Below are positions 36,880 to 61,049 of a DNA stretch of 64,000 bases, piece after piece (position 1 is the stretch's first letter; the number at the start of each line of letters is the position of its first letter). The position numbers and the translations under genes were made by a program. The stretch is taken from NCBI GenBank assembly GCA_026397015.1, contig JAPLVR010000003.1:276134-340133 (forward strand), read 5' to 3'. The notes beneath the pieces are model-generated. The model did no database searches. It was not told where the DNA came from and was given only the letters and a program-made list of their open reading frames with translations. This DNA is from Candidatus Iainarchaeum sp. GTDB lineage: Archaea > Iainarchaeota > Iainarchaeia > Iainarchaeales > JAAZKV01.

Positions 36880-37239
36880 GTGGTCATTTTGGGTTTGTTT
36901 AACAAAGTAATGTCGAAGCAGGACTCTGACATAGAAGAATTTTTGAATACTATTGACGAGGAGCCTGAAGAAAATTACGAAGACGCTGACGCTTTCGTAA
37001 AGCCTATGGACCTTATTTCAGAGGCGGACGCAACGGCAATAATCAAGGAAGCAAAATCCGGGAATATTGTTCTGGTAAATATTGATGATTTGTCGAGGAG
37101 AAACAGCGTAAAGCTGAAAGAGCTCATTGGAAGAATAAAGCGGGAAATAAAGCTTATTGACGGCGATCTGGCAAGAATTTCACAGGAAAGAATAATTGTT
37201 ACGCCATCAAAAGTAAAAATAATCAAAAGAAGGCAGTGA
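36880..37239 (+). CDS. sepF: Cell division protein SepF homologue (DUF552), GTG start
   Basis: N-terminal amphipathic ILGLFNKV (membrane-targeting type), an acidic linker, then KEAKSGNIVLVNIDDLSRRNSVKLKELIGRIKREIKLIDGDLARISQERIIVTPSKVKI. Confidence 0.7.
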   Translation: MVILGLFNKVMSKQDSDIEEFLNTIDEEPEENYEDADAFVKPMDLISEADATAIIKEAKSGNIVLVNIDDLSRRNSVKLKELIGRIKREIKLIDGDLARISQERIIVTPSKVKIIKRRQ

Positions 37240-37249
37240 GGCGAGGGCG

Positions 37250-38065
37250 TTGTATTTAGGCAGCCCCGCATTGCCGATCAAATTGGTTCCGGCGGACGCA
37301 GTAAAATCGTTGGATGATATTATCAGAAAGAAAAAGCGCTGGCACAAATTCGAGATAGCGACATTGAAGCTAATTCTCGTGCCCTATTTCTACTTTAATT
37401 ATCACTACTTTAAGGAAAAGGAGAAGGGCGGAGAAAAAATAATTGAAAGCTCGGTGGACGGCTTTCTTGCGATGAATGGGGAAACGCTTCAAATTGACGA
37501 GGAAACAACCACATTGATAAAGGAGAACATAAAAGCGGCTTCGGCCGAGGCACCGGGCATAGAATTTGAAATAATTGAAACGGGGATTGAAAAAAAGGAG
37601 CAGGAAACCGTTCTGAAGCTCAAGCTCGCGGAATATTTCCAAATATCGAAGGCAAACGTTGTTATTTCCAGCACAAAAAAAATTCTTTTGCCGCTCTACA
37701 AATCGTTTGTGACTGTTGAAGAAGGCACATTTCAGGTGCTGATAAACGCGGTAAACGGAGAAATTTCGGGAATTGAAAAAGTTCCGGCAAGGGAAAGGGA
37801 GCTCATAGAAATAACAAAAGAAACCATTAACGAGTTAAAGGACCCTGCTGCGTGGGTGGAATACACGAAAGGAATTTTATTCGAGACAAAAAAAATTGTT
37901 GTTCCGAAAAAAATGGCTGAAAAATCTGCCCGCGAATCGAAAAAAAGCGGAAGCGGAGAAGGATTTTCCATTGATTTAAATTTCTTTTCAAGCAAGTGGA
38001 TTCTGGTTCTGATAATGATATTGGCGCTTTTTGTGATTTACATGGCGCTCTTCGGAAGGCGCTAA
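37250..38065 (+). CDS. Hypothetical tail-anchored protein next to sepF (TTG start)
   Basis: 271 aa with no signal peptide and a C-terminal TM plus RR end (WILVLIMILALFVIYMALFGRR). Two similar internal modules (LILVPYFYFNYHY...VDGFLAMNGETL / ILLPLYKSFVTVEEG...INAVNGEI). Confidence 0.5.
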   Translation: MYLGSPALPIKLVPADAVKSLDDIIRKKKRWHKFEIATLKLILVPYFYFNYHYFKEKEKGGEKIIESSVDGFLAMNGETLQIDEETTTLIKENIKAASAEAPGIEFEIIETGIEKKEQETVLKLKLAEYFQISKANVVISSTKKILLPLYKSFVTVEEGTFQVLINAVNGEISGIEKVPARERELIEITKETINELKDPAAWVEYTKGILFETKKIVVPKKMAEKSARESKKSGSGEGFSIDLNFFSSKWILVLIMILALFVIYMALFGRR

Positions 38066-38144
38066 CAAAAGGACGCGAAAAGAAAACTTGGAATCTGAAC
38101 GCCGGCACCCTTCAAAATCAGACTCTCTTCAAAATTCGGGAAAA

Positions 38145-40826
38145 TCAACCGACTATTTCCGCCGCACAAATCTGGTTCGCCGGAACAACTGCTGTTTTTG
38201 CGCCGGCCAATTCGGTCGCCAAAACTTTCTGCTGATTCCAAAAGACTATCCATTTCGGGCTTCCCGTGCCGCTCATTTCCCTTGCGACACAAACGTCTTT
38301 GGTCTTTATTTTGTTCAAAATATCTTTCAGAATACTTATTTTGTCCGTGTTAAGCGAACTTACAAATGAAGCCGAAGTATTAGAGTAACTTAATGAGCAA
38401 GCGGCACCTGTGCTTGTACAGCTGCCTAATGCGCCTTCGCCTTTGTAAAAAGCGCTGACAGACGGGCTTGAAGGCTTGAAATCGAGCGACTGGTTAACTG
38501 CGCCCACTGGCAAGTAAAGGACCGTTTCGAGATAAATGTTACTATCAGGAATTAATCCTGCTTTGAATTTATCCAATTCGAATTGGGTGCCTGCTATAGG
38601 TGCATCCGGTTCCCTGTAAGGCAACGGATCTACCCCTGGAGATACGATACTTCCGCATCCGTTCTTAACCGAACTTGCAAAGCCCGTCCAATAAGAGAAA
38701 GTGTCTTTTCCGTTGAAGGGAGTTCCCCAGTCACCAGAAACATTGAACGAAGAATTTGCAGTTCCTGCACCGCCAGCATTTATTCGAATGAAAATCGGAA
38801 TCGCGAATGTGTTGTAAAGGATTCTGTTCAGATTTTGCTCTCCGCCTTCCATATACTCAAGCAGGTAACCGCTTTTCAAAACATTTGTTGCATACGGAAA
38901 ATTTGTAAATGCCTCGTTATACATTGAAATATTGTTTGAAACGCCGTCGGAATTAAAGTCGCTGTCGTAAAAGAACCAGTGCAAAGCTGGCTTGGAAACC
39001 GGCCCCGTAAGCTTAATTTCAATCTGCAACTTAGGGTCTACTGCAGCAGTGCTGCCGCTCAAACATGTGTCGCCGAAAACGTATGCGCAGTCACTACCTG
39101 AAACACTTGGAGGTGCCGACCTTGAAACTGTTATTGCAACATCATACGAGCCGGCATCAACAAACCCCATATAGTTTCCGTTGACGCTTATTTTTGCCGC
39201 ATTGTAAAGGGCTGAAAGCCTTGCAAATTTATCCGCATTTGTAGCCCCATAAACGTTCGCGTTTACTCCTGAATTTGAAAGGAAACTATTTATTATCCCG
39301 AGACTTTTTGTAATTTCTTCGGCACTAACTTGCTGGTCTCGCACATAAGAACTGAAAGCCATATACTGCGCTTCTTCAGCTGAGCCTTCTCCCTGATCAG
39401 TCCTTATCTCCGCAACCTTTGCAATTTTGTTTGCGAGCTCCACAAGGAATTCTGACTGCATGCAGTAGACATAATTCGAATTACTCGAATCACATTCATC
39501 AATTGATATTGCCCCGCCGCCCGTGCTTCCTCCGTGGACGAGATTTACTTGCGGGTCAACTTCTTCGCCCGTGCGGCCAACCAGCCCTTCAAACCCTATA
39601 CATTCATTCTGACCCGCGGCAACTTTGACTTCCGCCTGGAAATCCTGCTGGTCAAGCAGCCCGACAGTGTAATCTATTGGGCTTGAGGAGATTGAAGCTG
39701 ATTCCGGATTGGAACCGTTGAATAGGTAATTCACGTTCAGGGAAACAGCCGATGTTATTGGGCTGTTTGATTTTGCAAACGTTAATTTCAGCGGAACGAT
39801 TAGTGACCCTCCATTTTCAATAGGCCAACCGTTATATTCTGTCGGAGCAACACAGGTTACGCCGTTTGACGCCGTACAACTAAAAGTTGTTGTTGTTTCC
39901 TGTGCGCCGGAATTGTTCACCAAAATAAAGTAAATCGTTTCATTATATCCCCCTGTCTGTTCGAAGTGCCTTATTGCCTTTGTTTGTGCCGGGCCAAAAA
40001 TTAAGAGGGATGGACGAGACGGGGGAACAGGTTCAACCACATTAACGACTATTTCTTGAGAATCCCTCCAAACAAAATTTGCCTCTCCTTCTCCAGGGAT
40101 AGGTGCCCCAGCGATTGCAAACAACCCATATTTCAGTTTCATTTTGTACGTGCCAGCTTCAGCAAATGTGTATTCGACTGTGTTATTTGCCCAGTCATTG
40201 CCACTTCCAACTTTAAAATCTTCAGAAACATTACCACAGATCTCCTGTGACAGCTTCCCATCCGCCCCAAACGCGCCCGATGGGACCGTTTTGTAAAGTG
40301 TGGAAGGAATGTATGCACAAAACCCTATTTTGACTTGACCGCCACTGTCCCTGCAAAGCACTTGAAGACCTCCCGAATTTGGCAAGCTAATTAACCCGTT
40401 ATTGCAACTATGCCCGGGGTTATGAACTCCATGATCAAAAAGGCAGTATTTAACTGTGGAATACGCCTTCGGAGAACACCAACCAACTTGGCCGCTATCA
40501 CAGGAATTCGTCACAAGATAACTGTCTTTACGGACTGTTGCGTCTGAGGAATTGTAGAGTGCCACGAAAGGCGCCACTGCCCCTTGGAGAGCCTGATCAT
40601 CACAATAAGCATTCATTTTCCCAAATGTTAATGTCATTTTCGTTCCAACTGGGAAAGAATTATCCGGATTGGCAGTCTGATCATAGGAAGGAGTGGTTGT
40701 AAGCGCATTATCCAATTGAGGCACCATGCAGTGAACATTTTGTTCGATGACAAATGAAAATGAAAAAGGCGTTAAGACAAAAAGCGCTAGAACCAAGCAA
40801 AACACGGCAACTTTTCTTGAAGTCAT
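38145..40826 (-). CDS. Secreted Cys-rich protein, 893 aa, no recognisable domain (surface operon gene 3)
   Basis: Signal peptide MTSRKVAVFCLVLALFVLTPFSFS and many Cys. ATGA overlap with the upstream gene. Confidence 0.65.
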   Translation of the reverse strand: MTSRKVAVFCLVLALFVLTPFSFSFVIEQNVHCMVPQLDNALTTTPSYDQTANPDNSFPVGTKMTLTFGKMNAYCDDQALQGAVAPFVALYNSSDATVRKDSYLVTNSCDSGQVGWCSPKAYSTVKYCLFDHGVHNPGHSCNNGLISLPNSGGLQVLCRDSGGQVKIGFCAYIPSTLYKTVPSGAFGADGKLSQEICGNVSEDFKVGSGNDWANNTVEYTFAEAGTYKMKLKYGLFAIAGAPIPGEGEANFVWRDSQEIVVNVVEPVPPSRPSLLIFGPAQTKAIRHFEQTGGYNETIYFILVNNSGAQETTTTFSCTASNGVTCVAPTEYNGWPIENGGSLIVPLKLTFAKSNSPITSAVSLNVNYLFNGSNPESASISSSPIDYTVGLLDQQDFQAEVKVAAGQNECIGFEGLVGRTGEEVDPQVNLVHGGSTGGGAISIDECDSSNSNYVYCMQSEFLVELANKIAKVAEIRTDQGEGSAEEAQYMAFSSYVRDQQVSAEEITKSLGIINSFLSNSGVNANVYGATNADKFARLSALYNAAKISVNGNYMGFVDAGSYDVAITVSRSAPPSVSGSDCAYVFGDTCLSGSTAAVDPKLQIEIKLTGPVSKPALHWFFYDSDFNSDGVSNNISMYNEAFTNFPYATNVLKSGYLLEYMEGGEQNLNRILYNTFAIPIFIRINAGGAGTANSSFNVSGDWGTPFNGKDTFSYWTGFASSVKNGCGSIVSPGVDPLPYREPDAPIAGTQFELDKFKAGLIPDSNIYLETVLYLPVGAVNQSLDFKPSSPSVSAFYKGEGALGSCTSTGAACSLSYSNTSASFVSSLNTDKISILKDILNKIKTKDVCVAREMSGTGSPKWIVFWNQQKVLATELAGAKTAVVPANQICAAEIVG

Positions 40827-42559
40827 TTCTTTTTCACCTTCTCTTTTTTGTGCTGAACCTCTTTCTTCTTAACAGCCTGCTTAACAGAAATTTTCTTCGG
40901 GCTCCTCAGCACCGTGAAAAGAACAGCCAATGCAATCACTATAATTATTATTGCCGCCCACAAAATAAAAGGTATGCTGAAAATCGACAGGAACGAAATT
41001 GGCTCTATTGCGGGCTGGCATGTTCCAATACAACACAAACCCTGAACCGATTTGTAGGAGTTTCCTCTGCACGCTTCCCCTGCGGAGCAGATTATGCCTG
41101 CGCACTCGGTCGGCTGTGCCTGCCCTTCCGATTGTTTTGAAGAGAAATCTAATGTAAACATCTGCTGCCTTTTTGCATCAAAGTCATCAACTGTCATTGT
41201 AAGGTCGCCCTTCCTTAAGTAAATACTTTTCTTGTAAATGCCGGGCTGGTTTATCTGCTCTTCAAAAAGCGTTTCATCCGAAGAAAAGATTCTTACCCTT
41301 GCATTGATGCTTTCTTTTTCGAGGGTGAGAGAAAGCGTTTCGGCGGATTCCTCATATGCCCAAGTTACTTTTACAACTCGCGGGTGCCTTGCGTCATAAG
41401 CTGCTTGTATCTCTTCAATTGGCGCGGGAAAGCATTCCTGCTCGTAAATTGTCCCGCCTTTCTCAATCTTTGCGCATATCTTTGTAAACTTTTTAGACTC
41501 GAGGTTGAAGGACTGCAAAATAATGTACCTGAATTCCTCGCCCCCCGCACCGAGCTTTTCTCCTTCGGCGGATTTTTCCTCAATCAATTTTTCGCCATCA
41601 TAAATCTCTGCCTTTATCGAATAACCTTCAAAAGCTGGATAGTTGAAATGGTCAGGACTGCCCGCAATTAATAGGTTGAGTGAATATTTTCCAACATCAA
41701 GACCGTCAATGAAAATTTTTCTGAATTTTGCTGTGCCGCCGGCGACGATTGCCCTGTTTTTGTAAACCGATTCTGTCTTGTCTCCGTTGAAAAGTTTGAG
41801 ATTTATTTCATAAGCGGAAGGAATTGCAGGGGCTTTCATGGCAACTTGCACATCAACAGTTCCGCCTGCAGGGATTGATATTACATCAACAACCGTTTCC
41901 TCCGGATTTTCGCAAAATGCTGAAGCCCAATCACACATTGAAACGTGCAATTTTAGAGAATCTTTTGGAACAGTTGAAGGATTCGAAACGCGCACGACAC
42001 CTTTTATTTCTCCATTTGGTTCAACTGGAAATCCAACCGGGCCAACGGTATCATTGAATTTTGTATTTTCCCTGTCAATCGATGCTTTTGCTTCCGCACT
42101 GCCCCCCGAAACTTTAAACTCTTTCGATGCCGGCGCCAGGAATATTGCGCTATTGCCAATAAGAATTGATTTCAGCGCCCAGGAATAAATATCTATCCTA
42201 TATTCTCCACTTTCCTGCGCATCAACAGAAAAATTTATTGTTTTATTTGCGTTCGGAAGTATCCATATGTCGCCATAATTTTTCTCTGAAATAACGTTGT
42301 CCTTTGTGGTAAATTGCGCCACATAATCGTATTTTCCCTGCGCCAATTGAACTACGACTTTCGCCCCCAAAAGCGGATAATTTTCAGAATTCAAGAGGGT
42401 TATTTTTCCCGTTATCGGTTCGCCGCTTTGGAACTCTGCCTTATCAAGCTGAATCGTTACTGCGCCTTTCCAAATCAAATCTTCGAATGAGTATGCGAAT
42501 GCTCCCGAAAGCAGGAACGTCAAAGCCAAAAATAATGCGATTTGCTGCAGTACCTTCAT
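40823..42559 (-). CDS. Surface protein, 578 aa: signal peptide, Ig/CARDB-like modules, Cys cluster, C-terminal TM and Lys-rich tail (surface operon gene 2)
   Basis: MKVLQQIALFLALTFLLSGAFA; FQSGEPITGKITLLNSENYPLLGAKVVVQL; ECAGIICSAGEACRGNSYKSVQGLCCIGTCQP; FILWAAIIIIVIALAVLFTVL followed by a 27-aa K-rich tail. Confidence 0.65.
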   Translation of the reverse strand: MKVLQQIALFLALTFLLSGAFAYSFEDLIWKGAVTIQLDKAEFQSGEPITGKITLLNSENYPLLGAKVVVQLAQGKYDYVAQFTTKDNVISEKNYGDIWILPNANKTINFSVDAQESGEYRIDIYSWALKSILIGNSAIFLAPASKEFKVSGGSAEAKASIDRENTKFNDTVGPVGFPVEPNGEIKGVVRVSNPSTVPKDSLKLHVSMCDWASAFCENPEETVVDVISIPAGGTVDVQVAMKAPAIPSAYEINLKLFNGDKTESVYKNRAIVAGGTAKFRKIFIDGLDVGKYSLNLLIAGSPDHFNYPAFEGYSIKAEIYDGEKLIEEKSAEGEKLGAGGEEFRYIILQSFNLESKKFTKICAKIEKGGTIYEQECFPAPIEEIQAAYDARHPRVVKVTWAYEESAETLSLTLEKESINARVRIFSSDETLFEEQINQPGIYKKSIYLRKGDLTMTVDDFDAKRQQMFTLDFSSKQSEGQAQPTECAGIICSAGEACRGNSYKSVQGLCCIGTCQPAIEPISFLSIFSIPFILWAAIIIIVIALAVLFTVLRSPKKISVKQAVKKKEVQHKKEKVKKK

Positions 42560-45500
42560 TATTTCGCCCTCCCTTTATTTACATAATCTGTAATATTTAT
42601 TATGCTGTAATTGGTTCCGCTTGAAGTTCCCTTGTTCAGCAAAAAATCCATTTTGCCGCTGGAATCAATAGGCGTATTGTTTGTTCCGAAGTACCTTGCC
42701 TTTATTATTCCCAGGTATCTCCCATTTAGGTACCCTCCTTCGATCCAAAAAAACAAACTTGAATCGGCGGGCGCGCACACTATTTGTGTAGTTGGATTAT
42801 TAACACCGGAATTGCTGAAAATTGAATAGTCAATCGTGCCCAGTGTTTGCGTAATCCCATTCGTCGATTTTACGGAATAAGTGCCGAGCGTTATTTCTTT
42901 CGCCGTGCCCCCCGAAGTCAACTTTACGTTGCAGCCATAGTTGGCCGCTGTTCCAGGGTTTGCGGTGCCAGGGCCAACAGTTAATCCGAAAGAATCCACA
43001 GCAACTTTTGGAGTTTCCGAATCCTTATTTGTGCCAATGCTTTTTCTACAAGAATTTGTTATTGAAAATGCCTCTGATGCATTAGATATGAGGTCGAAGC
43101 TGTCCTTGGAAATCACGAAACAATCTGACGGCCTCGTCAGGTGCACTATTGCACGCTCAGCCATTACAAATCTTTTGTTTGTGCCCGCAAACTTTGCTTT
43201 CACCAAAATCGGGAAGAAACCTAAAATGTCCGTAAAGTTTGGATCCGGCTTAGCTGAAAGAGGAAGGTAACCCTTGTTCATTCCATTAATATTGAATGAG
43301 TGGGAATTAAGAGGATAGCCCGCGAGAGAAGGAATTGTTATTTCAAGAGTGCTCGCATTAATGTCTGTTTCAAGCTTTACAACAACATCCCTCACACAAT
43401 TGTTAGTAACTATCAGCGTTGCGTTTGCGCCCCACTCCAAAGTTGTTTCGCTTTCCTCTGTAATGTTTGGAACGCCTGCAAATACAGCATCAACGCATGC
43501 AAGAGAAGGATCCGGACCCTGGCCCCTTCCTGCATAAAGTGTTGCACTTAGCATCTCAAAATCAGGATTAACTGCTGAGGCATTTATATCTAAACAATCA
43601 ACATTATACACGTAAACACCCGGAATGTTTTTCCAAAAATATCCGTCGGCAGGAGAATTTACGCCAGCAATAAGCCCGACTAAAGGCGGGTGAGTATCGC
43701 CATAAGGATCAATTGCAATAGTTTTTGTTCCTGTTCCTCTGCAATTTCTGTAAACTGTAACCGAAGCGTTTCCAAGTTTTACCAAATTTTTATCGGAAAT
43801 CGGCTGAGTCGAGCCGGGCAAACCTGTCAAATAAACGTAACCGTCAAAGTTTTGGTCCGGGAAGCGCGCAAGGAATTCCGCGTCCAAACTTATCTGGCTT
43901 CCAAGGGTGTGAGTTGAAACGAGCGCCGCATAAATTTTGCCGCTTGAATTCGTGTCCATTACGAGCCAGTTGTCCTTATTCAATTTGCTTGAATAGACTA
44001 ACATATCTATTGGTGATGAACATTCTCCGGATACAATTGTTCCAACCGGGAAAGTTTTCATCTGCACTGTCTGATCGTCAATGTAAAGGTAGCCGCTGCC
44101 GCTGAAACCCGGCTTGCCTATTACCGTGAGATCCAAAGTTGCAGCTGAAAACACAACCAAATTTCCGAAAGAAATATTTGCCCCTGAATTATTGCAAACG
44201 CTTATGCTCGCCTTGTTGAATTGATTTCCTACAAGAACGCGGGAGCTGGTTCCTTGAGAAGCTATTACGCCTGCAGGAACGCCTGAAGTCAATTGTGTTA
44301 AATCAACTGCAGTGTCCTTTATTGAAACGTCAAAATAAATTCCCTTTTTAACCGGCTTTCCGACAACGAACATTACTTTTTTCAATTCCGTTTGGGATGC
44401 GAATGAAGTGTGTTTTTCTTTTGCGCGGTAACCAACCGTAACAGTATCGCCCTTGAGCGCAGTTGGTCCGAGAAGGAAATCAACTGCAAAAGAATATACT
44501 CCTGTCGGAAGAGGGTCATTTTTCCAATCCGTTCCGACCTGAACATTTTTTAGGAAACATCCCGATGTTGTTGGGAAATAATAATTGTCATCGCATACTG
44601 TTGCGGAGCAGTTGGCTTGTGAACCTCTGCAAGTGAAAACCGAGGGCGAAGGCGGATTGTAATAGAAAGGCGTCGCAAGTTTTGATGGAATGCTTATCAT
44701 TTCTGCCGTCCCGTTGCTTTTTGAAACAATATTTATGTCCGCCATTGAAAGCAATTCCTGATAACTCACTTCTTTATTTATCACAATATCGAGCTTCACA
44801 TAGTAATGCTTGCCATTTGTAGAGTCTGTTGAGAAAGTCGTTACTGTTGAGGCGTCCTTGCCTTTCCACGGATCATCCGTAACGTTGTAAAGCTGGTCAA
44901 AGAAAATATTTATGTTTCCATCAAGATTTGAAGGATACATCTTTATTGCGTATTCATTTGAACCGACTGCGAGGCTGCCGGGCTCGATTGGAACGCTTGT
45001 AGAAACAAATCCTGAGGCGTTTGCCTTTATCATCAGCCTTTTTGAGCTATCATAATTGAGGGAGCTTGCAAGCAAATGTGAAGAGGAATCGAAAACCATT
45101 TTTTCAGCGGAAACCAAAGTGGAGTAATCTGTTGAACTTGAAATATAAATATTCACATCCGCGCTTTGCATCGCCGAATCGGAAAGCTTTTCCTCAGTTA
45201 TGCCATTGTAAAGCAAAACTTTTATTGTGCTCAGGCTTGTGTCAACATTCAAGTCAAAGAAAATTATTCCCCCCTTATACAGGTTATTGGTGTCAGATAA
45301 TACCGAAACGGCGCCGCCGTAGGACGCTTTCGCCCTGTAAGTGCCTTGCATCATTCCGGAATAAGTTGCTTTTCCGTACGGAACAGTGGTGTCCCTTTCG
45401 GGGTACAATTTTATTGTTCTCAATGCGGCTGCGTTCAATGTTGGAGAACAAGGACTTGTTATGCAAAAATCATAATACAGCCATGTTTTCGCATCGATGA

Positions 45501-46977
45501 GAGGCTTGAGATTGCTTTTCTGCTTTACGCCCACTTCAACTGTGCCGCTATTTGAAGCAGTGGCTTTTTCAAGTTTCACCGAATCATATTCCGTGCTTGA
45601 AGTTTCCTTCAAAGTCGGAACAAATGCGGAATACAAATAACCTTCCTTGTAAACTGTAACAACCAATACATTTCTGTCTCTGACTGTGCAGCTACTTGAA
45701 CCGGCGCCGCCATTCGGATTGCAAAGAATTACCTTTCCATTTGAATCCGTTTGATTTGTTTCCCTGAGCCCCGTGCCCGCAATTGCATTATTGAAATCAA
45801 ATTCCATGTCTTCTAAAGCTACAAGTGCCCCGGGAATCGCTGCACCCGTAGAAGAATCTGTAACCACCAAATTTATTCTTCTCCTGTCCAGGGGGTTAAT
45901 GAATTCAAGATAAATGTTTACTTCTTTTGGAGGACTGACTTTTATTTCAAATTCTATTCCTTTTTGTGTGTAATAGCTTGGGTGATTTACGGTGAGCGAA
46001 TATGCGCCGGGGTCCAAATCGCTTTTTGTATAAGAACCCCTTGAATTTGCAAGATAAGTTCCAAGGATGTCGCCGTCTTTGTAAATGCTTATTGTTGCGC
46101 TTGTCGGATCGACAATTTGCTCCGGAGTTGCTCCTGAAGAAGGCGCTGGTCCCTTGTACAAATTGACCGTTAATGTTCCCTTTGTGTTAGGGTTGTTTTT
46201 TCTCAATACAATCGTGGTTGAAGAATCCGTCAATATTTTTGGCAAAGATGTCACCGCAATGTAACCGTCTGCGCTCGCATCAACAATTTGGAATTGGCAT
46301 TCATCCCTCGCCAAGCTGATGCTTCCATCCGTATCCCCGTCTTCTGAATCGTTCACAGTAAATTTTGTTCCCGGGCTGTTTGCACAAACATATTTTACAA
46401 GCGAGCTTTCTTCGACGATAGTGTTGCCGCTTTCATCCTCAAACAAAACTTCGGCTGCGCCCAAAAACTCGCTCTTAATTTGATAAAGCTTCATTTCATA
46501 TTGAAGGGAACCTAAATCAATCTCTGCGCCTTCTATTGTGCCATAACCTGTTTTCTCCGCGGAAATTAGTGCTGAAAAAGTTTCTTTTGAAGGAAGAATT
46601 ATTTTTCCAATCATGCCAAAAAAATTTACAGGTTCACCCGCAAAAGACAGTGTTGCTTTTCCTTCCGCGCCAGTTACTTTATCCATAAAAGGTGTTCCAC
46701 TTATTGAACCGTATAATTTAACTCCCGGGAGCGGATCTCCTGTATCGCCGTCCTTGGTTATTATCATTGCCTCATAATTGCTGGAAAAATTTAGAAGATA
46801 CCCAACCAGAACCAAAAGAAAAACAATTGAAAGCAAAAAAAGGACGAAACTGGGAATTATTTCGTCAATCTTATCAATTACGTGGTAAACAGGCATCTTT
46901 GCATCTATTTTATCCAAAAGGTTGTACCATTTATCCTCAAAAGAGAAATAAATGTTCTTCAGGAAATCCAACGCCAT
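42559..46977 (-). CDS. Giant N-terminally anchored surface protein, 1472 aa, with tandem carboxypeptidase-regulatory-like beta-sandwich modules (surface operon gene 1)
   Basis: 43-aa cytoplasmic head and TM FVLFLLSIVFLLVLVGYLL. About six ~100-aa modules follow (ITKDGDTGDPLPGVKLYG...TGAEGKATL; VVTDSSTGAAIPGALVALED...TDSNGKVIL), then about 800 unassigned aa. TAATG overlap with gene 2. Confidence 0.7.
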   Translation of the reverse strand: MALDFLKNIYFSFEDKWYNLLDKIDAKMPVYHVIDKIDEIIPSFVLFLLSIVFLLVLVGYLLNFSSNYEAMIITKDGDTGDPLPGVKLYGSISGTPFMDKVTGAEGKATLSFAGEPVNFFGMIGKIILPSKETFSALISAEKTGYGTIEGAEIDLGSLQYEMKLYQIKSEFLGAAEVLFEDESGNTIVEESSLVKYVCANSPGTKFTVNDSEDGDTDGSISLARDECQFQIVDASADGYIAVTSLPKILTDSSTTIVLRKNNPNTKGTLTVNLYKGPAPSSGATPEQIVDPTSATISIYKDGDILGTYLANSRGSYTKSDLDPGAYSLTVNHPSYYTQKGIEFEIKVSPPKEVNIYLEFINPLDRRRINLVVTDSSTGAAIPGALVALEDMEFDFNNAIAGTGLRETNQTDSNGKVILCNPNGGAGSSSCTVRDRNVLVVTVYKEGYLYSAFVPTLKETSSTEYDSVKLEKATASNSGTVEVGVKQKSNLKPLIDAKTWLYYDFCITSPCSPTLNAAALRTIKLYPERDTTVPYGKATYSGMMQGTYRAKASYGGAVSVLSDTNNLYKGGIIFFDLNVDTSLSTIKVLLYNGITEEKLSDSAMQSADVNIYISSSTDYSTLVSAEKMVFDSSSHLLASSLNYDSSKRLMIKANASGFVSTSVPIEPGSLAVGSNEYAIKMYPSNLDGNINIFFDQLYNVTDDPWKGKDASTVTTFSTDSTNGKHYYVKLDIVINKEVSYQELLSMADINIVSKSNGTAEMISIPSKLATPFYYNPPSPSVFTCRGSQANCSATVCDDNYYFPTTSGCFLKNVQVGTDWKNDPLPTGVYSFAVDFLLGPTALKGDTVTVGYRAKEKHTSFASQTELKKVMFVVGKPVKKGIYFDVSIKDTAVDLTQLTSGVPAGVIASQGTSSRVLVGNQFNKASISVCNNSGANISFGNLVVFSAATLDLTVIGKPGFSGSGYLYIDDQTVQMKTFPVGTIVSGECSSPIDMLVYSSKLNKDNWLVMDTNSSGKIYAALVSTHTLGSQISLDAEFLARFPDQNFDGYVYLTGLPGSTQPISDKNLVKLGNASVTVYRNCRGTGTKTIAIDPYGDTHPPLVGLIAGVNSPADGYFWKNIPGVYVYNVDCLDINASAVNPDFEMLSATLYAGRGQGPDPSLACVDAVFAGVPNITEESETTLEWGANATLIVTNNCVRDVVVKLETDINASTLEITIPSLAGYPLNSHSFNINGMNKGYLPLSAKPDPNFTDILGFFPILVKAKFAGTNKRFVMAERAIVHLTRPSDCFVISKDSFDLISNASEAFSITNSCRKSIGTNKDSETPKVAVDSFGLTVGPGTANPGTAANYGCNVKLTSGGTAKEITLGTYSVKSTNGITQTLGTIDYSIFSNSGVNNPTTQIVCAPADSSLFFWIEGGYLNGRYLGIIKARYFGTNNTPIDSSGKMDFLLNKGTSSGTNYSIINITDYVNKGRAK

Positions 46978-47027: not shown

Positions 47028-47124
47028 CACAATATAATATAACAGTTAAATAATAGTTTTAGGTTGTTAATAAAGCTTTTGCGCTGCAAAATGCGCGAAA
47101 AATGGCCCCGTTGCCGCGGTTGCA

Positions 47125-51728: not shown

Positions 51729-53846
51729 TTACTCGGGCGGGCGGACCTTCCAAATAAATCCTGTTCTGGACGTGAAATTTGTGTCATCAAATGAAGCATC
51801 ACTACTCCATGCCTCTCCGACTATATACACATAACCTGAAGAATCAAGCGCGATTCCATTAGGGTAATCAGAATCTGCTCCGCCGCCCTGTTTCGCCCAG
51901 TCCAGATTGCCGCTGGAATCAAACTTTGCGACGAGCACATCAAACGAACCGTACGCTCCAAATTGTTCTTCTCCTCCGATTGTAAGCGTTCCTGCGAATC
52001 CGTACGTTACATACACGTTCTCAGAAGAATCGACTGCAAGTGATTTTGTACCCCCGCCATAGGTTAGCATGCCGATCAATAAATCCGAATCCATTACTTT
52101 TGCCCACTGCCAGTTTCCAGAACTGTCAAGCTTTGCCAAAAACATGGCTTTGCCGCCATCGGAAGAGCTTATCTCGATACTGCCGAAAGTCGCCGTTTCG
52201 GTGAATTGCCCGAGAACATATACTCCGCCTGATTCCCCGACAACGACATCATACACCGAACCGGCAGAGGCCTGCGCAACCCACCCCCAATTGCCATCAG
52301 TATTAATTTTTCCAACAAAAACACTGCCATCATAGGCATTCAAGTCAAACGCATCAAACAGCACACTATCGCCAAAAGTGCCCGTTACATATAAGTTGCC
52401 TGAACTGTCTATGTCAATGCTCACGCCCCCATCAACAGACACTCCGCCATCCCTTCTTGCCCAAACCCAGTTGCCATCAGAATCAAGTTTTGAGACAAAA
52501 ATATCTCTGTCATCTTCGCCTTCAACAGCCAGCAAATTTGTATCCCCGAATAATGCATTGGGCCCAAAAGTTCCAGTTAAATAAGTATTGCCGGAAGCGT
52601 CAACAACACACTTGCCGCCATATACGCCGTGGTTTGCAAACAAATATGAGCCGACATAGGGGTTTCTTCCCGACTGCTCTGCCCACAGCCAATTTCCACC
52701 AGAATTTAATGTAGCCGAATATATGTCCGTAACATCGTCTTCGTAAGCTTGCAACATCACACCATCGAAAAATGCCGATCCATAAAATCCACCGCAAGTA
52801 TGTATTTTGCTTGATGAATCAACCTGCGGCCTGCTAGAAACAACACTTTCATTTGTCCCATACGAAGTATTTGCCCACACCCAGTTGCTTCCGTTACTAT
52901 CAAGTTTTGCTATCGCGGCACCCTGATCACACGCTGGATCTGTATGGGTTGCGGTCAGATTGATGCTCCCGAATGACATTGAATCAGTATATGTTGCAGT
53001 CACGAAAATATTGCCGCTTGAATCAACAAACACTCCGTTTCCGGTGCCATCAAAACCTTTCGCAAAATAAATCGGTGGCGCAGGTGCGGCATACGTTACG
53101 CTCCACGGCCCGTTGTTGCTGTCCGCCCAATTATTGTTGCCGTCAATACAATTAACATTCCACTCATAAACCCCTTCTTCGCCGAACGAAACGCTAAAAG
53201 AATCAAAAGGCGCGCTGGAATCCGTTTGGTCAACAACTCCGCCAATAATAAGCTTACAATTCGAAACCCCTACATCATCACTCACAAAATAAACAAAATT
53301 AACATCCCCGTCCTCATCAACACTCTCATCCGAAGGAGAAACCAAAGAAACAACTGGCGAAGTCACATCTATAAAAACATCAGGAGTACAATTCACAACA
53401 AACTCGCCCGACCCTGCAATGATTTTGGTAAGTCCATGCTGGTCAATGTAAATAATATTTATTTTGTAGCCGTGCTCGTTGCCTGTGCAGGCAGGCAAAT
53501 TGGAAACGCTTATTGCTGCATCGCTGCCCACAGGAACCTTTGTGATTGTAAGGTTTTTGTCCTCGCCGTCAATATTTACGCCAACAATTGTTATATCATC
53601 TGCGCTATTATTACTAAACTTGAAAATTGCATCCCCCTTGGAATCAGCAACAGATTCAACAATACTCACATCCTGCGAAGACCAAACCAACTGAGAATTA
53701 TCCTTCGTAAGCCCTGGAGCAGAATCAATAAAACCAGAAATCAAAGAAATAACAACCAAACTTATGACAACTATTATCGCCAAAAGAACCACATATTCAA
53801 TCGTTCCCTGGGCGCGCACCGGCCTTCCTCCACTCATTTTACGCAT
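51729..53846 (-). CDS. Class III (type IV pilin-like) signal peptide protein with an Ig-like domain and an SBBP-type beta-propeller
   Basis: MRKMSGGRPVRAQG|TIEYVVLLAIIVVISLVVISLISG matches the archaeal prepilin motif. About 12 alternating half-repeats follow, of the types DSSGN[IL]YVTGTF and D[SG]GNW[VQ]WA[RK]. Confidence 0.7.
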   Translation of the reverse strand: MRKMSGGRPVRAQGTIEYVVLLAIIVVISLVVISLISGFIDSAPGLTKDNSQLVWSSQDVSIVESVADSKGDAIFKFSNNSADDITIVGVNIDGEDKNLTITKVPVGSDAAISVSNLPACTGNEHGYKINIIYIDQHGLTKIIAGSGEFVVNCTPDVFIDVTSPVVSLVSPSDESVDEDGDVNFVYFVSDDVGVSNCKLIIGGVVDQTDSSAPFDSFSVSFGEEGVYEWNVNCIDGNNNWADSNNGPWSVTYAAPAPPIYFAKGFDGTGNGVFVDSSGNIFVTATYTDSMSFGSINLTATHTDPACDQGAAIAKLDSNGSNWVWANTSYGTNESVVSSRPQVDSSSKIHTCGGFYGSAFFDGVMLQAYEDDVTDIYSATLNSGGNWLWAEQSGRNPYVGSYLFANHGVYGGKCVVDASGNTYLTGTFGPNALFGDTNLLAVEGEDDRDIFVSKLDSDGNWVWARRDGGVSVDGGVSIDIDSSGNLYVTGTFGDSVLFDAFDLNAYDGSVFVGKINTDGNWGWVAQASAGSVYDVVVGESGGVYVLGQFTETATFGSIEISSSDGGKAMFLAKLDSSGNWQWAKVMDSDLLIGMLTYGGGTKSLAVDSSENVYVTYGFAGTLTIGGEEQFGAYGSFDVLVAKFDSSGNLDWAKQGGGADSDYPNGIALDSSGYVYIVGEAWSSDASFDDTNFTSRTGFIWKVRPPE

Positions 53847-53986
53847 AAAAATCAATTGGCGGCGTTCATCGCTTAACAATTAGAAGGCGTTATTGTTTAT
53901 ATTATTATCTTGACCATTTTTCCAACGCGCATAGTATAGAATATAGGTTTCACTGTGTGTCATAAGACCGAACATGCCGTAGCGCC

Positions 53987-55354
53987 TTATTCGCTTTCCT
54001 CGCCGGAAATTCCGGAAATTTTTTCCCTTTGAACCGTGAGGGTGAGAAGAAGATTCAGGCCATCACCTATTTTGTGGCCGGGATTCACTATTGCGGTGAA
54101 GCTCCCCTTTTCAAAAGGAAGCTCCTTTCCAAACGAATTAACCATTAGGCCGTTCATGTCGAAATTCGCGTCCTGTTTCAATGAAACGGAAAAGCCTTTT
54201 GAGGAAAGAATCGTTTCAAGTACGCCTGCATTTTCGGAAGAGAGAATTTCGCCGAAGACAACCTCTTTTGGATACGAAATTTGAATTGCTGCATTTTTGC
54301 CCTTGAAATAATTTCGAATTGAGGAAATAATGGAATCGATTTTTTCTTTCTGGAAACCTGCTGAAATCGAATTGTCTTCGCCCGCTTCCGCCGAGGAAAC
54401 GCCTGCAAAACCCTTAATCATATCGATGTCAGAAGAAGACACTGTGTAATTTTTGTCAACCGAAATTGTTAGGGAATTTTGAAGGGAAAAAATTGCAGGC
54501 CGCGCATTTACGCCGGCGGCGACCAATTGTGATTTCAACGCATTTTCATCGACATAAGAATTCAAATCTCTTTCGCCTTCATATGAAATTTTTTCCCCGA
54601 GAGAAATTATGTTTAATGAAGCGTTTTGGGAAAAATCTTTTGATGAACCTGTATTGTTTGAGGACTCGAGCAGCTCGGCATTAACAAGGGTTTTTCCCTG
54701 CAGCTGAATCGTGCCGCCGACAACGATTGAATCATTCGGAATCGTTGAAAGTTCAACCCACGCCGTTTGCGCCTTTCCTTCAAAAGAAAAATTCACGTCC
54801 ATATTTAGGTCTGTGTTGCGCAGAATCATCGGTTCCTTCGGAACGGAAATTGTAACGCTTTTCTTTACCTCATATGTTCCCTGTTCGCCGGAAAAAAAGC
54901 CCGATGCGAGAATTTTTTCTGCCACCGCGCTTGGAGAAGCATTTTTCTCTATTGAAATTTCGGCGAAGTAAACCCACTCGCCTTCCGGAAAGCCCGTTTG
55001 TGTTTTGAAATTTGAAATTGAAACGGACTTAACGCCGTCTATTCCTTTCACAAACTTGTCGATTTTGTAGATATCGGATTCCTCTGTAATCGCGGCAAAT
55101 CTGACGAAGTTGAGTTCCTTCAAAACAGTTGTTTCAAAACTGGCGGTATAATTGAATTTTGATGTTTCAACAGTTGTTGGCGTTTCTTCCTGATTATTTT
55201 TGTTTGCATTCTTTTCGGTTGAAAGGATGGCTCCCGCTATCATGCTGCCGCCCATTACGACTACAACGAGGATGCCGAGCGCCTGCAACATCTTTTCTTT
55301 TTTCTTTTCGTCCAATTCAACCACTTCAGAACAACCTTTAAAAAGATTCCACAA
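53987..55354 (-). CDS. Hypothetical N-terminally anchored extracellular protein, 455 aa
   Basis: One TM (ALGILVVVVMGGSMIAGAIL), then Ser/Asn-rich sequence of beta-rich character. Directly upstream of, and co-oriented with, the pilin-like propeller gene. ATG 55291 is an alternative start. Confidence 0.55.
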   Translation of the reverse strand: MWNLFKGCSEVVELDEKKKEKMLQALGILVVVVMGGSMIAGAILSTEKNANKNNQEETPTTVETSKFNYTASFETTVLKELNFVRFAAITEESDIYKIDKFVKGIDGVKSVSISNFKTQTGFPEGEWVYFAEISIEKNASPSAVAEKILASGFFSGEQGTYEVKKSVTISVPKEPMILRNTDLNMDVNFSFEGKAQTAWVELSTIPNDSIVVGGTIQLQGKTLVNAELLESSNNTGSSKDFSQNASLNIISLGEKISYEGERDLNSYVDENALKSQLVAAGVNARPAIFSLQNSLTISVDKNYTVSSSDIDMIKGFAGVSSAEAGEDNSISAGFQKEKIDSIISSIRNYFKGKNAAIQISYPKEVVFGEILSSENAGVLETILSSKGFSVSLKQDANFDMNGLMVNSFGKELPFEKGSFTAIVNPGHKIGDGLNLLLTLTVQREKISGISGEESE

Positions 55355-61015: not shown

Positions 61016-61049
61016 AAAAATCATAACTATGTCCAAAAAGCAATACTCG

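What the first reader, a model, noticed from the sequence alone, without database searches (positions are those of the whole stretch)
38145..46977. Translationally coupled three-gene operon encoding 2943 aa of surface proteins with complementary membrane topologies
- Three consecutive minus-strand ORFs of 1472, 578 and 893 aa take up 8.8 kb, about 14% of the window.
- They are joined by stop/start overlaps that I verified in the sequence: TAATG at 42557-42561 and ATGA at 40823-40826.
- Gene 1 has a 43-aa cytoplasmic head (MALDFLKNIYFSFEDKWYNLLDKIDAKMPVYHVIDKIDEIIPS) and a single N-terminal TM. About six carboxypeptidase-regulatory/transthyretin-like beta-sandwich modules follow, then about 800 unassigned residues.
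- Gene 2 has a cleavable-type signal peptide, Ig/CARDB-like modules and a Cys cluster (ECAGIICSAGEACRGNSYKSVQGLCCIGTCQP). It ends in a C-terminal TM and a 27-aa poly-Lys cytoplasmic tail.
- Gene 3 has only a signal peptide and is Cys-rich with no recognisable domain.
- One N-anchored, one C-anchored and one soluble partner made in fixed stoichiometry looks like a dedicated envelope or attachment complex rather than three unrelated adhesins.
- None of them resembles a known S-layer, pilus or secretion family that I can recognise.
- If the organism is an episymbiotic DPANN-type archaeon, this is a prime candidate for a host-contact apparatus.
Basis: partly seen in the sequence, partly recalled or inferred. 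Interest (0 to 1): 0.7.

Follow-up and report, generated by a model that had tools for sequence, protein, structure and literature searches.

The report
Split giant archaeal cell-surface protein operon
These three overlapping genes of a tiny DPANN archaeon are real and always found together, and they turn out to be the separated pieces (plus one extra membrane protein) of a single giant, membrane-anchored surface protein that related archaea make as one chain; the whole protein family is undescribed and its job on the cell surface is still unknown.

Summary
Three minus-strand ORFs (1472, 578 and 893 aa) are joined by TAATG and ATGA overlaps, and the predicted topologies are as described. The organism is a Candidatus Diapherotrites (Iainarchaeota) MAG.

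The trio is syntenic in every relative that has enough flank: helicase, g1, g2, g3, then p271, SepF, Orc1 and PolD. Two genomes carry the trio twice in tandem.

The main new result is that more distant relatives have one fused giant (about 2200 aa) at the same locus. Its N-terminal 1200 residues match g1 (hhalign E 1e-48 to 1e-76). Its C-terminal 500 residues match g3 (E 1e-19 to 1e-30). g2 has no counterpart in the giants.

So g1 and g3 are fission products of one head-anchored surface protein, and g2 is a lineage-specific type-I membrane protein translationally coupled to g3 (A/GTGA overlap in 14 of 15 junctions).

The 45-residue cytoplasmic head of g1 is its most conserved part. It marks a family of giant proteins: 130 hits in metagenomes, always at the N-terminus.

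No Pfam, NCBIfam, PDB or Foldseek match identifies an S-layer, pilus or adhesin family beyond generic beta-sandwiches.

The surface-complex idea is supported. The host-contact idea is not, because Iainarchaeota are described as putatively free-living. Function remains inferred.

The parts
47067..47078 (-). BRE/TATA-like promoter element AAGCTTTATTAA, 90 nt upstream of the g1 start codon
   Evidence: It occurs once in the window and not inside the trio. The same motif (TTTATTAA preceded by an A-rich stretch) lies upstream of g1 in about 15 of 18 orthologous loci, and a CTTATAAA variant in the other 3. Promoter function is inferred.
42559..46977 (-). g1: type-II (N-in) membrane-anchored stalk protein, 1472 aa, 158 kDa, pI 5.0
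   Evidence: Homologous over residues 3-1327 to the N-terminal ~1200 aa of fused giants.
46849..46977 (-). g1 cytoplasmic 'head' (residues 1-43: ..KNIYFSFEDKWYNLLDKIDAKMPVYHVIDKIDEIIPS)
   Evidence: It is 52-65% identical among g1 orthologues against 25-31% for the whole protein. It is 62-73% identical to the N-termini of otherwise divergent giants P0005 and P0006. Metagenomes hold 130 hits, always at the N-terminus of a large protein. Pfam and NCBIfam have no model for it.
46780..46848 (-). g1 single transmembrane helix (residues ~44-66)
   Evidence: Hydropathy scan and alignment A6.
44938..46770 (-). g1 tandem beta-sandwich (transthyretin/CarboxypepD_reg-like) repeat region, residues ~70-680
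   Evidence: Pfam CarboxypepD_reg at residues 294-358 (E 4e-9). In the family, CarboxypepD_reg hits 13 of 16 members, SpaA 6 of 16 and SdrD_B 5 of 16. Internal repeats appear.
42562..44937 (-). g1 distal region, residues ~681-1472, no assigned domain
   Evidence: No Pfam, NCBIfam or PDB hit. Residues up to ~1327 are still colinear with the giants.
42557..42561 (-). g1 stop / g2 start overlap TAATG, with GGGAGGG at 42567-42573
   Evidence: This junction is not conserved in relatives.
40823..42559 (-). g2: type-I membrane protein, 578 aa. It has a signal peptide (residues 1-22), about five Ig/MG-like beta-sandwiches, a 6-Cys module (residues 486-514; 41018-41104), a TM helix (~528-552; 40904-40978) and a Lys-rich tail.
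   Evidence: AF2 model pLDDT 85.5, pTM 0.71. Foldseek gives only MG-domain arrays at TM 0.15-0.26. The family alignment of 35 sequences has invariant Cys residues. The fused giants have no counterpart.
40823..40826 (-). g2 stop / g3 start overlap ATGA, with GGTGA at 40834-40838 inside the Lys-tail codons
   Evidence: An A/GTGA overlap with an SD-like motif is conserved in 14 of 15 orthologous junctions.
38145..40826 (-). g3: secreted soluble protein, 893 aa, 95 kDa, pI 4.75, 22 Cys, signal peptide residues ~1-25
   Evidence: AF2 model pLDDT 79.3. No specific structural neighbour in PDB or BFVD.
38172..39662 (-). g3 conserved core (residues ~389-885; motifs GLLDxQDFQ, CxGxxGxxGxTGE, DECD..WVYC, WFFY, YWTGFASS..GC, LPYR, FWN)
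   Evidence: Alignments A2 and A5. Homologous to the extreme C-terminus of the fused giants. An exhaustive search found 135 relatives in 1.84e9 representatives.
38066..38144 (-). Intergenic region after g3 with several oligo-T runs (38141-38144, 38131-38134, 38114-38117, 38078-38086); probable archaeal terminator, convergent with p271
   Evidence: Read directly. Terminator function is inferred.
36880..38065 (+). Conserved convergent neighbours: sepF (36880-37239) and p271 (37250-38065, a tail-anchored membrane protein of unknown function)
   Evidence: Pfam SepF E 4e-11 and no hit for p271. The pair is adjacent to the trio or to a fused giant in all class A and class B loci. A functional link to the trio is not shown.

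Best explanation
The trio is the split form of one giant, membrane-anchored cell-surface protein that is a conserved, vertically inherited component of the cell envelope in Iainarchaeota and their relatives.

Parts:
- g1 is inserted N-in/C-out by a single TM helix. Before the helix comes a strongly conserved 43-residue cytoplasmic head. After it comes a stalk of tandem transthyretin-like beta-sandwiches and a distal region.
- g3 corresponds to the distal C-terminal ~500-residue module of the ancestral giant. After gene fission it acquired its own Sec signal peptide and is exported separately. It most likely re-associates non-covalently with the outer end of g1.
- g2 is an added type-I membrane protein with an Ig/MG-like stalk, a membrane-proximal Cys knot and a C-terminal TM helix. 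It is found only in the split lineages. It is made from the same message immediately before g3 by stop/start coupling. It probably acts as a second membrane pillar or retention partner for g3.

Together they would form a glycosylated, disulfide-stabilised surface spike or coat: stalks anchored in the membrane with a distal cap.

Shown: gene structure, synteny, fission/fusion homology, topology, fold class and conserved coupling.

Inferred: physical assembly of g1 with g3 and g2, surface-coat function, and glycosylation.
For: - Synteny: the order helicase-g1-g2-g3-p271-sepF-orc1-polD holds in all 13 GTDB species loci and in the contigs of g2 homologues, and in 13 more metagenome loci.
- Duplication: the whole cassette is duplicated in L003 and L019, with copies 40-52% identical.
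- Positional orthologues: at the same locus, L022 and L025 have one 2218/2209-aa protein.
- Homology to giants: the g1 profile matches giant residues 5-1193 (prob 100%, E 1e-48; E 1e-76 against a giant profile). The g3 profile matches residues 1692-2201 (prob 99.2-99.8%, E 1e-19 to 1e-30). The same holds for P0005 and the L021 giant.
- Independent split: L091 has a two-gene split without g2 and with a 4-nt overlap.
- Head conservation.
- g2 to g3 coupling is conserved in 14 of 15 junctions.
- A conserved BRE/TATA motif lies only upstream of g1.
- Extracellular-type composition: pI 4.75-5.0, N/S/T-rich, 1.2-1.4 sequons per 100 aa against about 0.3 in cytoplasmic neighbours.
- AF2 models are beta-sandwich rich.
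- g1 and g3 evolve fast (24-32% identity) while neighbours are 60-77% identical, as expected for exposed surface proteins.
Against: - No interaction prediction or expression data could be obtained, so assembly of the three products is inferred from fusion and synteny only.
- g1 residues ~1328-1472 and g3 residues 1-392 have no detectable counterpart in the giants, so the junction is not colinear in detail.
- g2 has no counterpart in the giants and is absent from the L091 split, so its role is the weakest part of the model.
- Cys content (1.4-2.5%) is atypical of classical S-layer proteins (criteria quoted in bioRxiv 10.1101/2021.04.28.441871), and no S-layer domain was found.
- Tandem paralogue arrays in other lineages (class C) resemble variable adhesins more than a single structural coat protein.
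Confidence: 0.62

Rival explanations
1. It is the S-layer proper: a two- or three-component paracrystalline lattice analogous to Sulfolobales SlaA/SlaB. g2 (and g1) would be membrane-anchored stalks and g3 the lattice-forming canopy.
For: - g2 has the SlaB-like layout of signal peptide, beta-sandwich domains and C-terminal TM helix.
- g3 is a large soluble acidic secreted protein.
- The locus is a conserved core locus in a putatively free-living lineage.
- Masses (64-158 kDa) and pI (4.75-5.9) fit general S-layer criteria.
- A consensus-like promoter is conserved.
Against: - No sequence or fold similarity to SlaA, SlaB or any S-layer domain.
- The g2 model has no coiled-coil stalk.
- Sulfur amino acids are relatively abundant, whereas S-layer proteins typically have few.
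- In relatives the same protein is one N-terminally anchored 2200-2900-aa chain, often in 2-3 tandem paralogues. That is unlike known S-layer genes.
- No abundance data are available.
Confidence: 0.2
2. It is an adhesin or host-contact (or substrate-contact) fibre: a long stalk presenting a binding tip (the g3 module). It would be used for attachment to a host cell, to particles or to other cells, and would diversify under selection.
For: - The stalk domains (CarboxypepD_reg, SpaA, SdrD_B) are those of bacterial adhesin stalks.
- Divergence is fast and paralogous cassettes and tandem arrays exist.
- The proteins are Cys-rich extracellular modules.
- The DPANN affiliation is confirmed.
Against: - Iainarchaeota are described as putatively free-living.
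- The locus is syntenic and apparently universal in the sampled species, not accessory.
- The part that would be the binding tip (g3 core) is the more conserved extracellular part, with invariant Trp, Cys and Gly residues, whereas adhesin tips usually vary most.
- No lectin or known binding fold was found.
Confidence: 0.15
3. It is an artefact: a single giant gene broken by sequencing or assembly errors or by pseudogenisation. The three 'genes' would then be fragments.
For: The fused giants show that a single-gene form exists.
Against: - The same three-gene structure recurs in more than 25 independent assemblies. Start codons, SD-like motifs and signal peptides of g2 and g3 are conserved, and g2 has its own TM helix and stop codon.
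- g2 is not homologous to any part of the giants.
- All three evolve as intact ORFs at 24-46% identity.
Confidence: 0.01

Closest known systems
Sulfolobales two-component S-layer (SlaA canopy + SlaB membrane stalk; Metallosphaera/Sulfolobus structures, PMC11329633)
   Same: - Operon-encoded combination of a large soluble acidic secreted protein with a type-I membrane protein. That protein has a Sec signal peptide, beta-sandwich domains and a C-terminal TM helix.
- Rapid sequence divergence.
- Probable N-glycosylation.
   Different: - No detectable sequence or fold homology.
- A third, N-terminally anchored 158-kDa partner with a conserved cytoplasmic head is present.
- g2 has no coiled coil.
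- The proteins are Cys-rich.
- The soluble partner is homologous to the C-terminus of a membrane-anchored giant in relatives.
Giant beta-sandwich surface adhesins with CarboxypepD_reg / SpaA / SdrD_B stalk domains (e.g. Gram-positive MSCRAMM/Sdr and pilin-type stalks)
   Same: A tandem transthyretin/prealbumin-like beta-sandwich stalk carries a distal module. Sizes are very large and paralogue arrays occur.
   Different: - Anchoring is by an N-terminal signal-anchor with a conserved cytoplasmic head, not by LPXTG/sortase or a C-terminal anchor. No LPXTG motif is present.
- The organism is an archaeon.
- The distal module has no known binding fold.
Alpha-2-macroglobulin / complement C3-C5 macroglobulin (MG) domain arrays
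   Same: The best Foldseek matches of g2 (E about 1e-10) and g3 (E about 1e-5) are MG-domain chains. Faint bMG3 and MG4 Pfam hits occur in the related giants.
   Different: TM-scores are only 0.1-0.26. There is no thioester motif CGEQ and no bait region or TED/CUB domains. The match reflects only a generic Ig-like array.
Giant surface proteins of other DPANN archaea (e.g. nanohaloarchaeal giant surface proteins discussed in PMC10266531)
   Same: Very large secreted or membrane-anchored multi-domain proteins in ultrasmall archaea, presumed to mediate envelope or contact functions.
   Different: No homology was tested or found here. The head motif and the g3 module define a separate family that is, as far as I could find, undescribed.

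Membership tests
Head-anchored giant surface protein family (undescribed; defined here) | N-terminal ~45-aa head motif (..YYFFEDKWYxxLDKIDxKIPVYKIIDPIDKVIPSF) followed directly by one TM helix | tested here: met
   g1 residues 1-66..
Head-anchored giant surface protein family (undescribed; defined here) | Tandem transthyretin-like beta-sandwich region homologous to the N-terminal ~1200 aa of the giants | tested here: met
   hhalign prob 99.85-100%, E 1e-30 to 1e-76.
Head-anchored giant surface protein family (undescribed; defined here) | C-terminal ~500-aa conserved module (GLLDxQDFQ ... FWN) | tested here: met
   The module is present in trans as g3 residues 389-885. hhalign prob 96-99.8%, E 1e-9 to 1e-30.
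Sulfolobales-type SlaA/SlaB S-layer | Sequence or fold homology to SlaA or SlaB | tested here: not met
   No PDB sequence hit. No SlaA or SlaB entry appears among the top 50 Foldseek PDB matches of g2 or g3. g1 could not be modelled.
Sulfolobales-type SlaA/SlaB S-layer | Stalk subunit with signal peptide, beta-sandwich domains, trimeric coiled coil and C-terminal TM helix | tested here: inconclusive
   g2 has the signal peptide, beta-sandwiches and C-terminal TM helix. It has no long helix other than the TM and tail. Oligomeric state was not testable.
Sulfolobales-type SlaA/SlaB S-layer | Forms a 2-D lattice and is among the most abundant proteins | not testable with these tools
   Needs cryo-ET or proteomics of an Iainarchaeota enrichment.
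Generic archaeal S-layer glycoprotein (criteria quoted in bioRxiv 10.1101/2021.04.28.441871) | 40-200 kDa and pI 4-6 | tested here: met
   Masses are 158, 64 and 95 kDa. pI values are 4.99, 5.9 and 4.75.
Generic archaeal S-layer glycoprotein (criteria quoted in bioRxiv 10.1101/2021.04.28.441871) | Few or no sulfur-containing amino acids | tested here: not met
   Cys+Met is 2.6-3.7%, with 20, 10 and 22 Cys residues, many of them invariant.
Generic archaeal S-layer glycoprotein (criteria quoted in bioRxiv 10.1101/2021.04.28.441871) | Recognisable S-layer domain (e.g. TIGR01567-type) or PGF-CTERM/archaeosortase signal | tested here: not met
   No such hit in Pfam or NCBIfam. There is no C-terminal PGF motif.
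Alpha-2-macroglobulin / complement thioester proteins | Thioester motif CGEQ with TED domain and bait region | tested here: not met
   No C[GL]EQ motif in any of the three proteins. Only MG-like sandwiches match, at TM <= 0.26.
Sortase- or LPXTG-anchored adhesins with SpaA/SdrD_B stalks | C-terminal LPXTG sorting signal | tested here: not met
   No LPxTG motif. Anchoring is by TM helices.
Type IV pilin-like (class III signal peptide) surface structures | Class III signal peptide at the N-terminus | tested here: not met
   No Class_IIIsignal hit in g1-g3. Two other window proteins do have one.

The most novel reading that the evidence does not exclude
The 45-residue cytoplasmic head is a new, dedicated intracellular docking or sorting module. 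It would couple giant surface proteins across the membrane to a conserved cytoplasmic partner. One candidate is the always-adjacent SepF / tail-anchored p271 division module; another is a specialised insertion pathway for giant proteins. The surface coat would then be positioned or assembled in step with cell division. The natural fission (g1 | g3, with or without g2) provides a ready-made map of the subunit interfaces.
Probability: 0.15. Interest if true: 0.75.

Novelty: new variant of a known kind. Interest (0 to 1): 0.55.

Why it matters
Almost nothing is known about the cell envelope of Iainarchaeota (Diapherotrites), and no member has been cultured. This locus is a conserved, core-like, large (2943 aa) set of surface proteins and is therefore the best candidate for the main surface structure of these cells.

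The fused and split forms give evolutionary evidence that g1 and g3 belong to one structure, and they show where the domain boundary lies.

The highly conserved cytoplasmic head and the g3 core are two undescribed protein modules that could be turned into family models. Those models would improve annotation of hundreds of 'hypothetical' giant proteins in DPANN metagenomes, and would provide targets for antibodies, FISH-correlated imaging or cryo-ET.

It would not overturn any concept, because it is a new variant of the familiar theme of membrane-anchored beta-sandwich surface proteins.

Tried and rejected
- Pfam, NCBIfam and PDB sequence searches for all three proteins and for family profiles found nothing beyond one CarboxypepD_reg domain.
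- Foldseek of the g2 and g3 models against PDB, and of g3 against BFVD, gave only generic Ig/MG-like arrays with TM <= 0.26. On that basis I rejected membership of the alpha-2-macroglobulin, fusexin-like, S-layer and viral glycoprotein families.
- Profile-profile comparison found no paralogy among g1, g2 and g3.
- g2 is not a fragment of the giants.
It was repeated with hits from the exhaustive search.
The 'about six modules' claim and the fold of its distal 800 aa therefore remain open.
- The head alignment of 18 sequences was too degenerate for a metagenome scan. A tighter subset worked.
- My first TATA regex missed the conserved TTTATTAA box; I found it by eye and checked it.
- Rfam and tRNA scans of the window found nothing.
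- Literature searches found no description of this family.
- I considered and rejected a mobile-element or viral origin. GC content matches the flanks, and the locus is a stable core locus next to orc1, polD and sepF.
Full report
**1. Observation**

The TAATG (42557-42561) and ATGA (40823-40826) overlaps were read directly. Each downstream start codon is preceded at 7 nt by a Shine-Dalgarno-like motif: GGGAGGG at 42567-42573 and GGTGA at 40834-40838.

Base composition is uniform with the flanks. There are no RNA genes in the window.

g1 and g2 are 100% identical to proteins of a 'Candidatus Diapherotrites archaeon' MAG on a 347-kb contig. The neighbours are archaeal housekeeping genes: PolD DP2, Orc1/Cdc6, SepF, a Hel308-type helicase, SecDF and FttA.

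**2. The proteins themselves**

- **g1** (158 kDa, pI 5.0) has a 43-residue N-terminal segment, one hydrophobic helix at about residues 44-66, and then about 1400 extracellular-type residues.
  - Pfam recognises one CarboxypepD_reg domain at residues 294-358 (E 4e-9).
  - Across 16 family members, CarboxypepD_reg hits 13, SpaA 6 and SdrD_B 5.
  - A sequence-iteration search finds two clearly related modules, at about 252-374 and 463-584.
- Off-diagonal profile-profile hits (prob 88-98%, shifts of about 90-270 residues within residues ~70-680) show a tandem-repeat region.
- **g2** (64 kDa) was modelled with a 35-sequence alignment (pLDDT 85.5, pTM 0.71).
  - In order, it has a signal peptide, about five beta-sandwich domains, a small beta module carrying six invariant Cys (C486, C491, C497, C509, C510, C514), a TM helix and a basic tail.
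  - The 27-residue Lys-rich tail is unique to this genome; homologues have tails of 5-10 residues.
  - Foldseek finds only macroglobulin-type domain arrays (E about 1e-10, TM 0.15-0.26). No thioester motif exists.
- **g3** (95 kDa, pI 4.75, 22 Cys) has a signal peptide and no Pfam, NCBIfam or PDB sequence match.
  - Its model (pLDDT 79.3, with the conserved C-terminal 600 residues mostly above 85) has no specific neighbour in PDB or BFVD.
- g1 and g3 are N/S/T-rich and acidic. They carry 1.2-1.4 N-glycosylation sequons per 100 residues, against about 0.3 in cytoplasmic neighbours.
- The three proteins are not detectable paralogues of each other.

**3. Conservation and synteny**

g2 has 35 full-length homologues at 36-46% identity. 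I examined three sets of loci:

- contigs encoding three of these homologues;
- 13 loci from GTDB species representatives, all labelled Iainarchaeum, Forterrea, 'ainarchaeum' or archaeon;
- 13 further metagenome loci.

Every locus with enough flank shows the same order: NTP-transferase, helicase, g1, g2, g3, then convergent p271-sepF, then orc1 and polD.

g1 and g3 are only 24-32% identical to their orthologues. The flanking helicase, Orc1 and SepF are 60-77% identical. The trio therefore evolves fast, as exposed surface proteins do.

The whole cassette is tandemly duplicated in L003 and L019, and the copies are 40-52% identical, so the duplications are old.

The g2 stop / g3 start overlap (A/GTGA) is conserved in 14 of 15 junctions, and the remaining one overlaps by 8 nt. 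A GGTGA/GGAGG-like motif is embedded in the codons of g2's basic tail. The g1/g2 spacing varies from -14 to +108 nt.

A BRE/TATA-like element, AAGCTTTATTAA, lies 90 nt upstream of g1 (47067-47078). It is unique in the window and absent from the trio interior. The same element precedes g1 in about 15 of 18 orthologous loci, and a CTTATAAA variant precedes it in the other three.

Oligo-T runs follow the g3 stop codon.

These data support one conserved transcription unit with tight g2-to-g3 translational coupling.

**4. The head**

The first ~45 residues of g1 are by far its most conserved part: 52-65% identity among orthologues. They are also 62-73% identical to the N-termini of otherwise very different proteins of 2326-2471 aa.

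The consensus is ..LKGxYYFFEDKWYxxLDKIDxKIPVYKIIDPIDKVIPSF, followed directly by the TM helix. It contains an internal [LI]DKID..[IP] repeat.

A metagenome scan with two head peptides found 130 confirmed occurrences, of which 78 loci were kept. In every one of the 78 kept loci examined, the head is at the N-terminus of a large ORF. Neither Pfam nor NCBIfam has a model for it.

Because the ~1400 residues after the single TM helix are of extracellular type, the head must be cytoplasmic. This is an inference.

**5. The key result: fission and fusion**

The head-bearing loci fall into four classes:

- **Class A:** split trios like the window.
- **Class B:** a single fused giant of 2042-2360 aa next to helicase, orc1, sepF and p271 (L022, L025, L075, L076, L083, L090, L093).
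- **Class C:** tandem arrays of two or three giants of 2400-2940 aa (for example L020, L021, L024, L027, L031).
- **Class D:** a two-gene split of a g1-like 1136-aa protein and a g3-like 786-aa protein, with a 4-nt overlap and no g2 (L091).

In L022 and L025 the giant occupies exactly the position of the trio: giant, then convergent p262-sepF, then orc1 and polD. That genome is more distant from the window (Orc1 58%, PolD 54%, SepF 56% identity).

Profile-profile comparisons give the following:

| Query | Match in giant | Probability and E-value |
|---|---|---|
| g1 family | P0105 residues 5-1193 | prob 100%, E 1.4e-48 |
| g1 residues 3-1327 | class-B giant profile, residues 7-1197 | E 1.3e-76 |
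| g3 residues 393-883 | P0105 residues 1692-2201 | prob 99.2%, E 1e-19 |
| g3 residues 393-883 | class-B giant profile, residues 1692-2201 | prob 99.8%, E 1.4e-30 |
| g1 and g3 families | class-C giants | g1 vs P0005: E 1e-30; g3 vs P0005 and the L021 giant: E 1e-9 to 1e-10 |
| g2 family | no match in any giant | none |

An exhaustive HMMER search of 1.84 billion representative proteins with a g3 profile found only 135 relatives, 56 of them at E <= 1e-30. They include many giants in which the g3 core is the extreme C-terminus. All that carry a name are 'hypothetical protein'.

Thus g1 and g3 are the two ends of one ancestral polypeptide. Because fused forms occur in the more distant lineages, fission in the class-A lineage is the more parsimonious direction (inference). 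g2 is an addition specific to that lineage.

g1 residues ~1328-1472 and g3 residues 1-392 have no detectable counterpart in the giants. These may be where the post-fission interface and the new signal peptide evolved (inference).

**6. Most likely mechanism**

- g1 is a signal-anchored stalk: head inside the cell, beta-sandwich repeats outside.
- g3, the former distal module, is exported by its own Sec signal and re-binds the distal part of g1.
- g2 is made immediately before g3 from the same message. It provides a second membrane-anchored Ig-like pillar with a disulfide-knotted, membrane-proximal module, and it probably helps retain or organise g3.

The assembly is a glycosylated, disulfide-stabilised spike or coat on the cell surface. 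Gene structure, homology, topology and coupling are shown. Assembly and function are inferred. I put 0.62 on this structural reading.

Within this reading, two sub-questions stay open:

- **A true S-layer (0.2).** For it: g2 resembles SlaB in layout, and mass and pI fit S-layer criteria. Against it: there is no S-layer domain, no coiled coil, and relatively many sulfur residues, and N-anchored giants in tandem paralogues are unlike known S-layer genes.
- **An adhesin or contact fibre (0.15).** For it: the stalk domain types, the fast divergence and the paralogous cassettes. Against it: Iainarchaeota are described as putatively free-living (PMC12892359), the locus is core-like, and the presumed tip is the conserved part.

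An assembly artefact or pseudogene is excluded by the comparative data.

**7. Comparison with known systems and novelty**

The closest functional analogy is the SlaA/SlaB-type stalk-plus-canopy arrangement. The closest structural vocabulary is that of giant beta-sandwich adhesins and MG-domain arrays. Membership in each of those families fails at least one tested defining feature (see the membership table).

The head module and the g3 core define a family that I could not find described in the literature or in Pfam or NCBIfam. I rate this a new variant of a known kind (membrane-anchored multi-domain archaeal surface proteins), not a categorically new system.

Interest is moderate, for three reasons:

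- It is probably the main surface structure of an uncultured phylum.
- It comes with a natural fission experiment.
- It carries a strikingly conserved cytoplasmic head whose partner is unknown.

The most novel reading not excluded is that the head couples the surface protein to a cytoplasmic partner, such as the adjacent SepF/p271 module or a dedicated insertion route (probability about 0.15).

Noticed in passing
window 36880-38065 (+): sepF (119 aa) is followed 10 nt later by p271, a 271-aa tail-anchored protein (C-terminal TM helix, no Pfam or NCBIfam hit). This pair is conserved and lies next to the trio or the fused giant in all class A and class B loci, in different orientations. It may be an undescribed SepF-associated membrane protein.
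   Followed up: partly
window 47067-47078 (-): A BRE/TATA-like AAGCTTTATTAA lies 90 nt upstream of g1. It is unique in the window, and the same box is conserved upstream of g1 orthologues in about 15 of 18 loci. This implies a 5' UTR of about 60 nt.
   Followed up: partly
window 59885-61036 (-) and 51729-53879 (-): Two secreted proteins have class III (type IV pilin-like) signal peptides. One is 383 aa with an Lcl_C domain and 3.7% Cys. The other is 716 aa with an SBBP beta-propeller repeat (its class III hit is weak). A third secreted acidic protein at 53987-55354 has no domain hit.
   Followed up: partly
L020:17471-19985, L021:15951-17800, L024:15932-18825: In class C loci, the tandem giants are followed by five or six small co-directional ORFs (76-220 aa, no Pfam hits) and then a family-B DNA polymerase. 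This is a recurrent arrangement of unknown meaning.
   Followed up: no
L022:148-9906 and L025:1-7889: Upstream of the fused giant and divergent from it are an A24-type prepilin peptidase and a cluster of five radical-SAM genes with HxsD (a His-Xaa-Ser-type peptide maturation system). The arrangement is conserved in both loci.
   Followed up: no
L001:15667-17973; L014:1463-4936; L034:865-4338: Inteins interrupt Orc1/Cdc6 (768 aa, Intein_splicing + LAGLIDADG) in some relatives, and apparently also the helicase (about 1157 aa). They are absent from the window's copies.
   Followed up: no
window 40224-40433 (g3 residues ~132-201): The window's g3 has a Cys-rich insertion that is absent from all homologues and has low pLDDT. 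The exact g3 protein is not in the 15-billion-protein collection although g1 and g2 are, which suggests a different gene call in the public record.
   Followed up: no
L016:11665-16053: One orthologue of g3 is extended to 1462 aa (P0076-like). The g3 core is followed by about 600 extra residues, so the distal module can also grow by C-terminal addition.
   Followed up: no
P0002: The closest g1 homologue (46% identity, partial) is labelled 'Candidatus Izemoplasmatales bacterium' in NCBI. This is probably a mis-binned archaeal contig.
   Followed up: no
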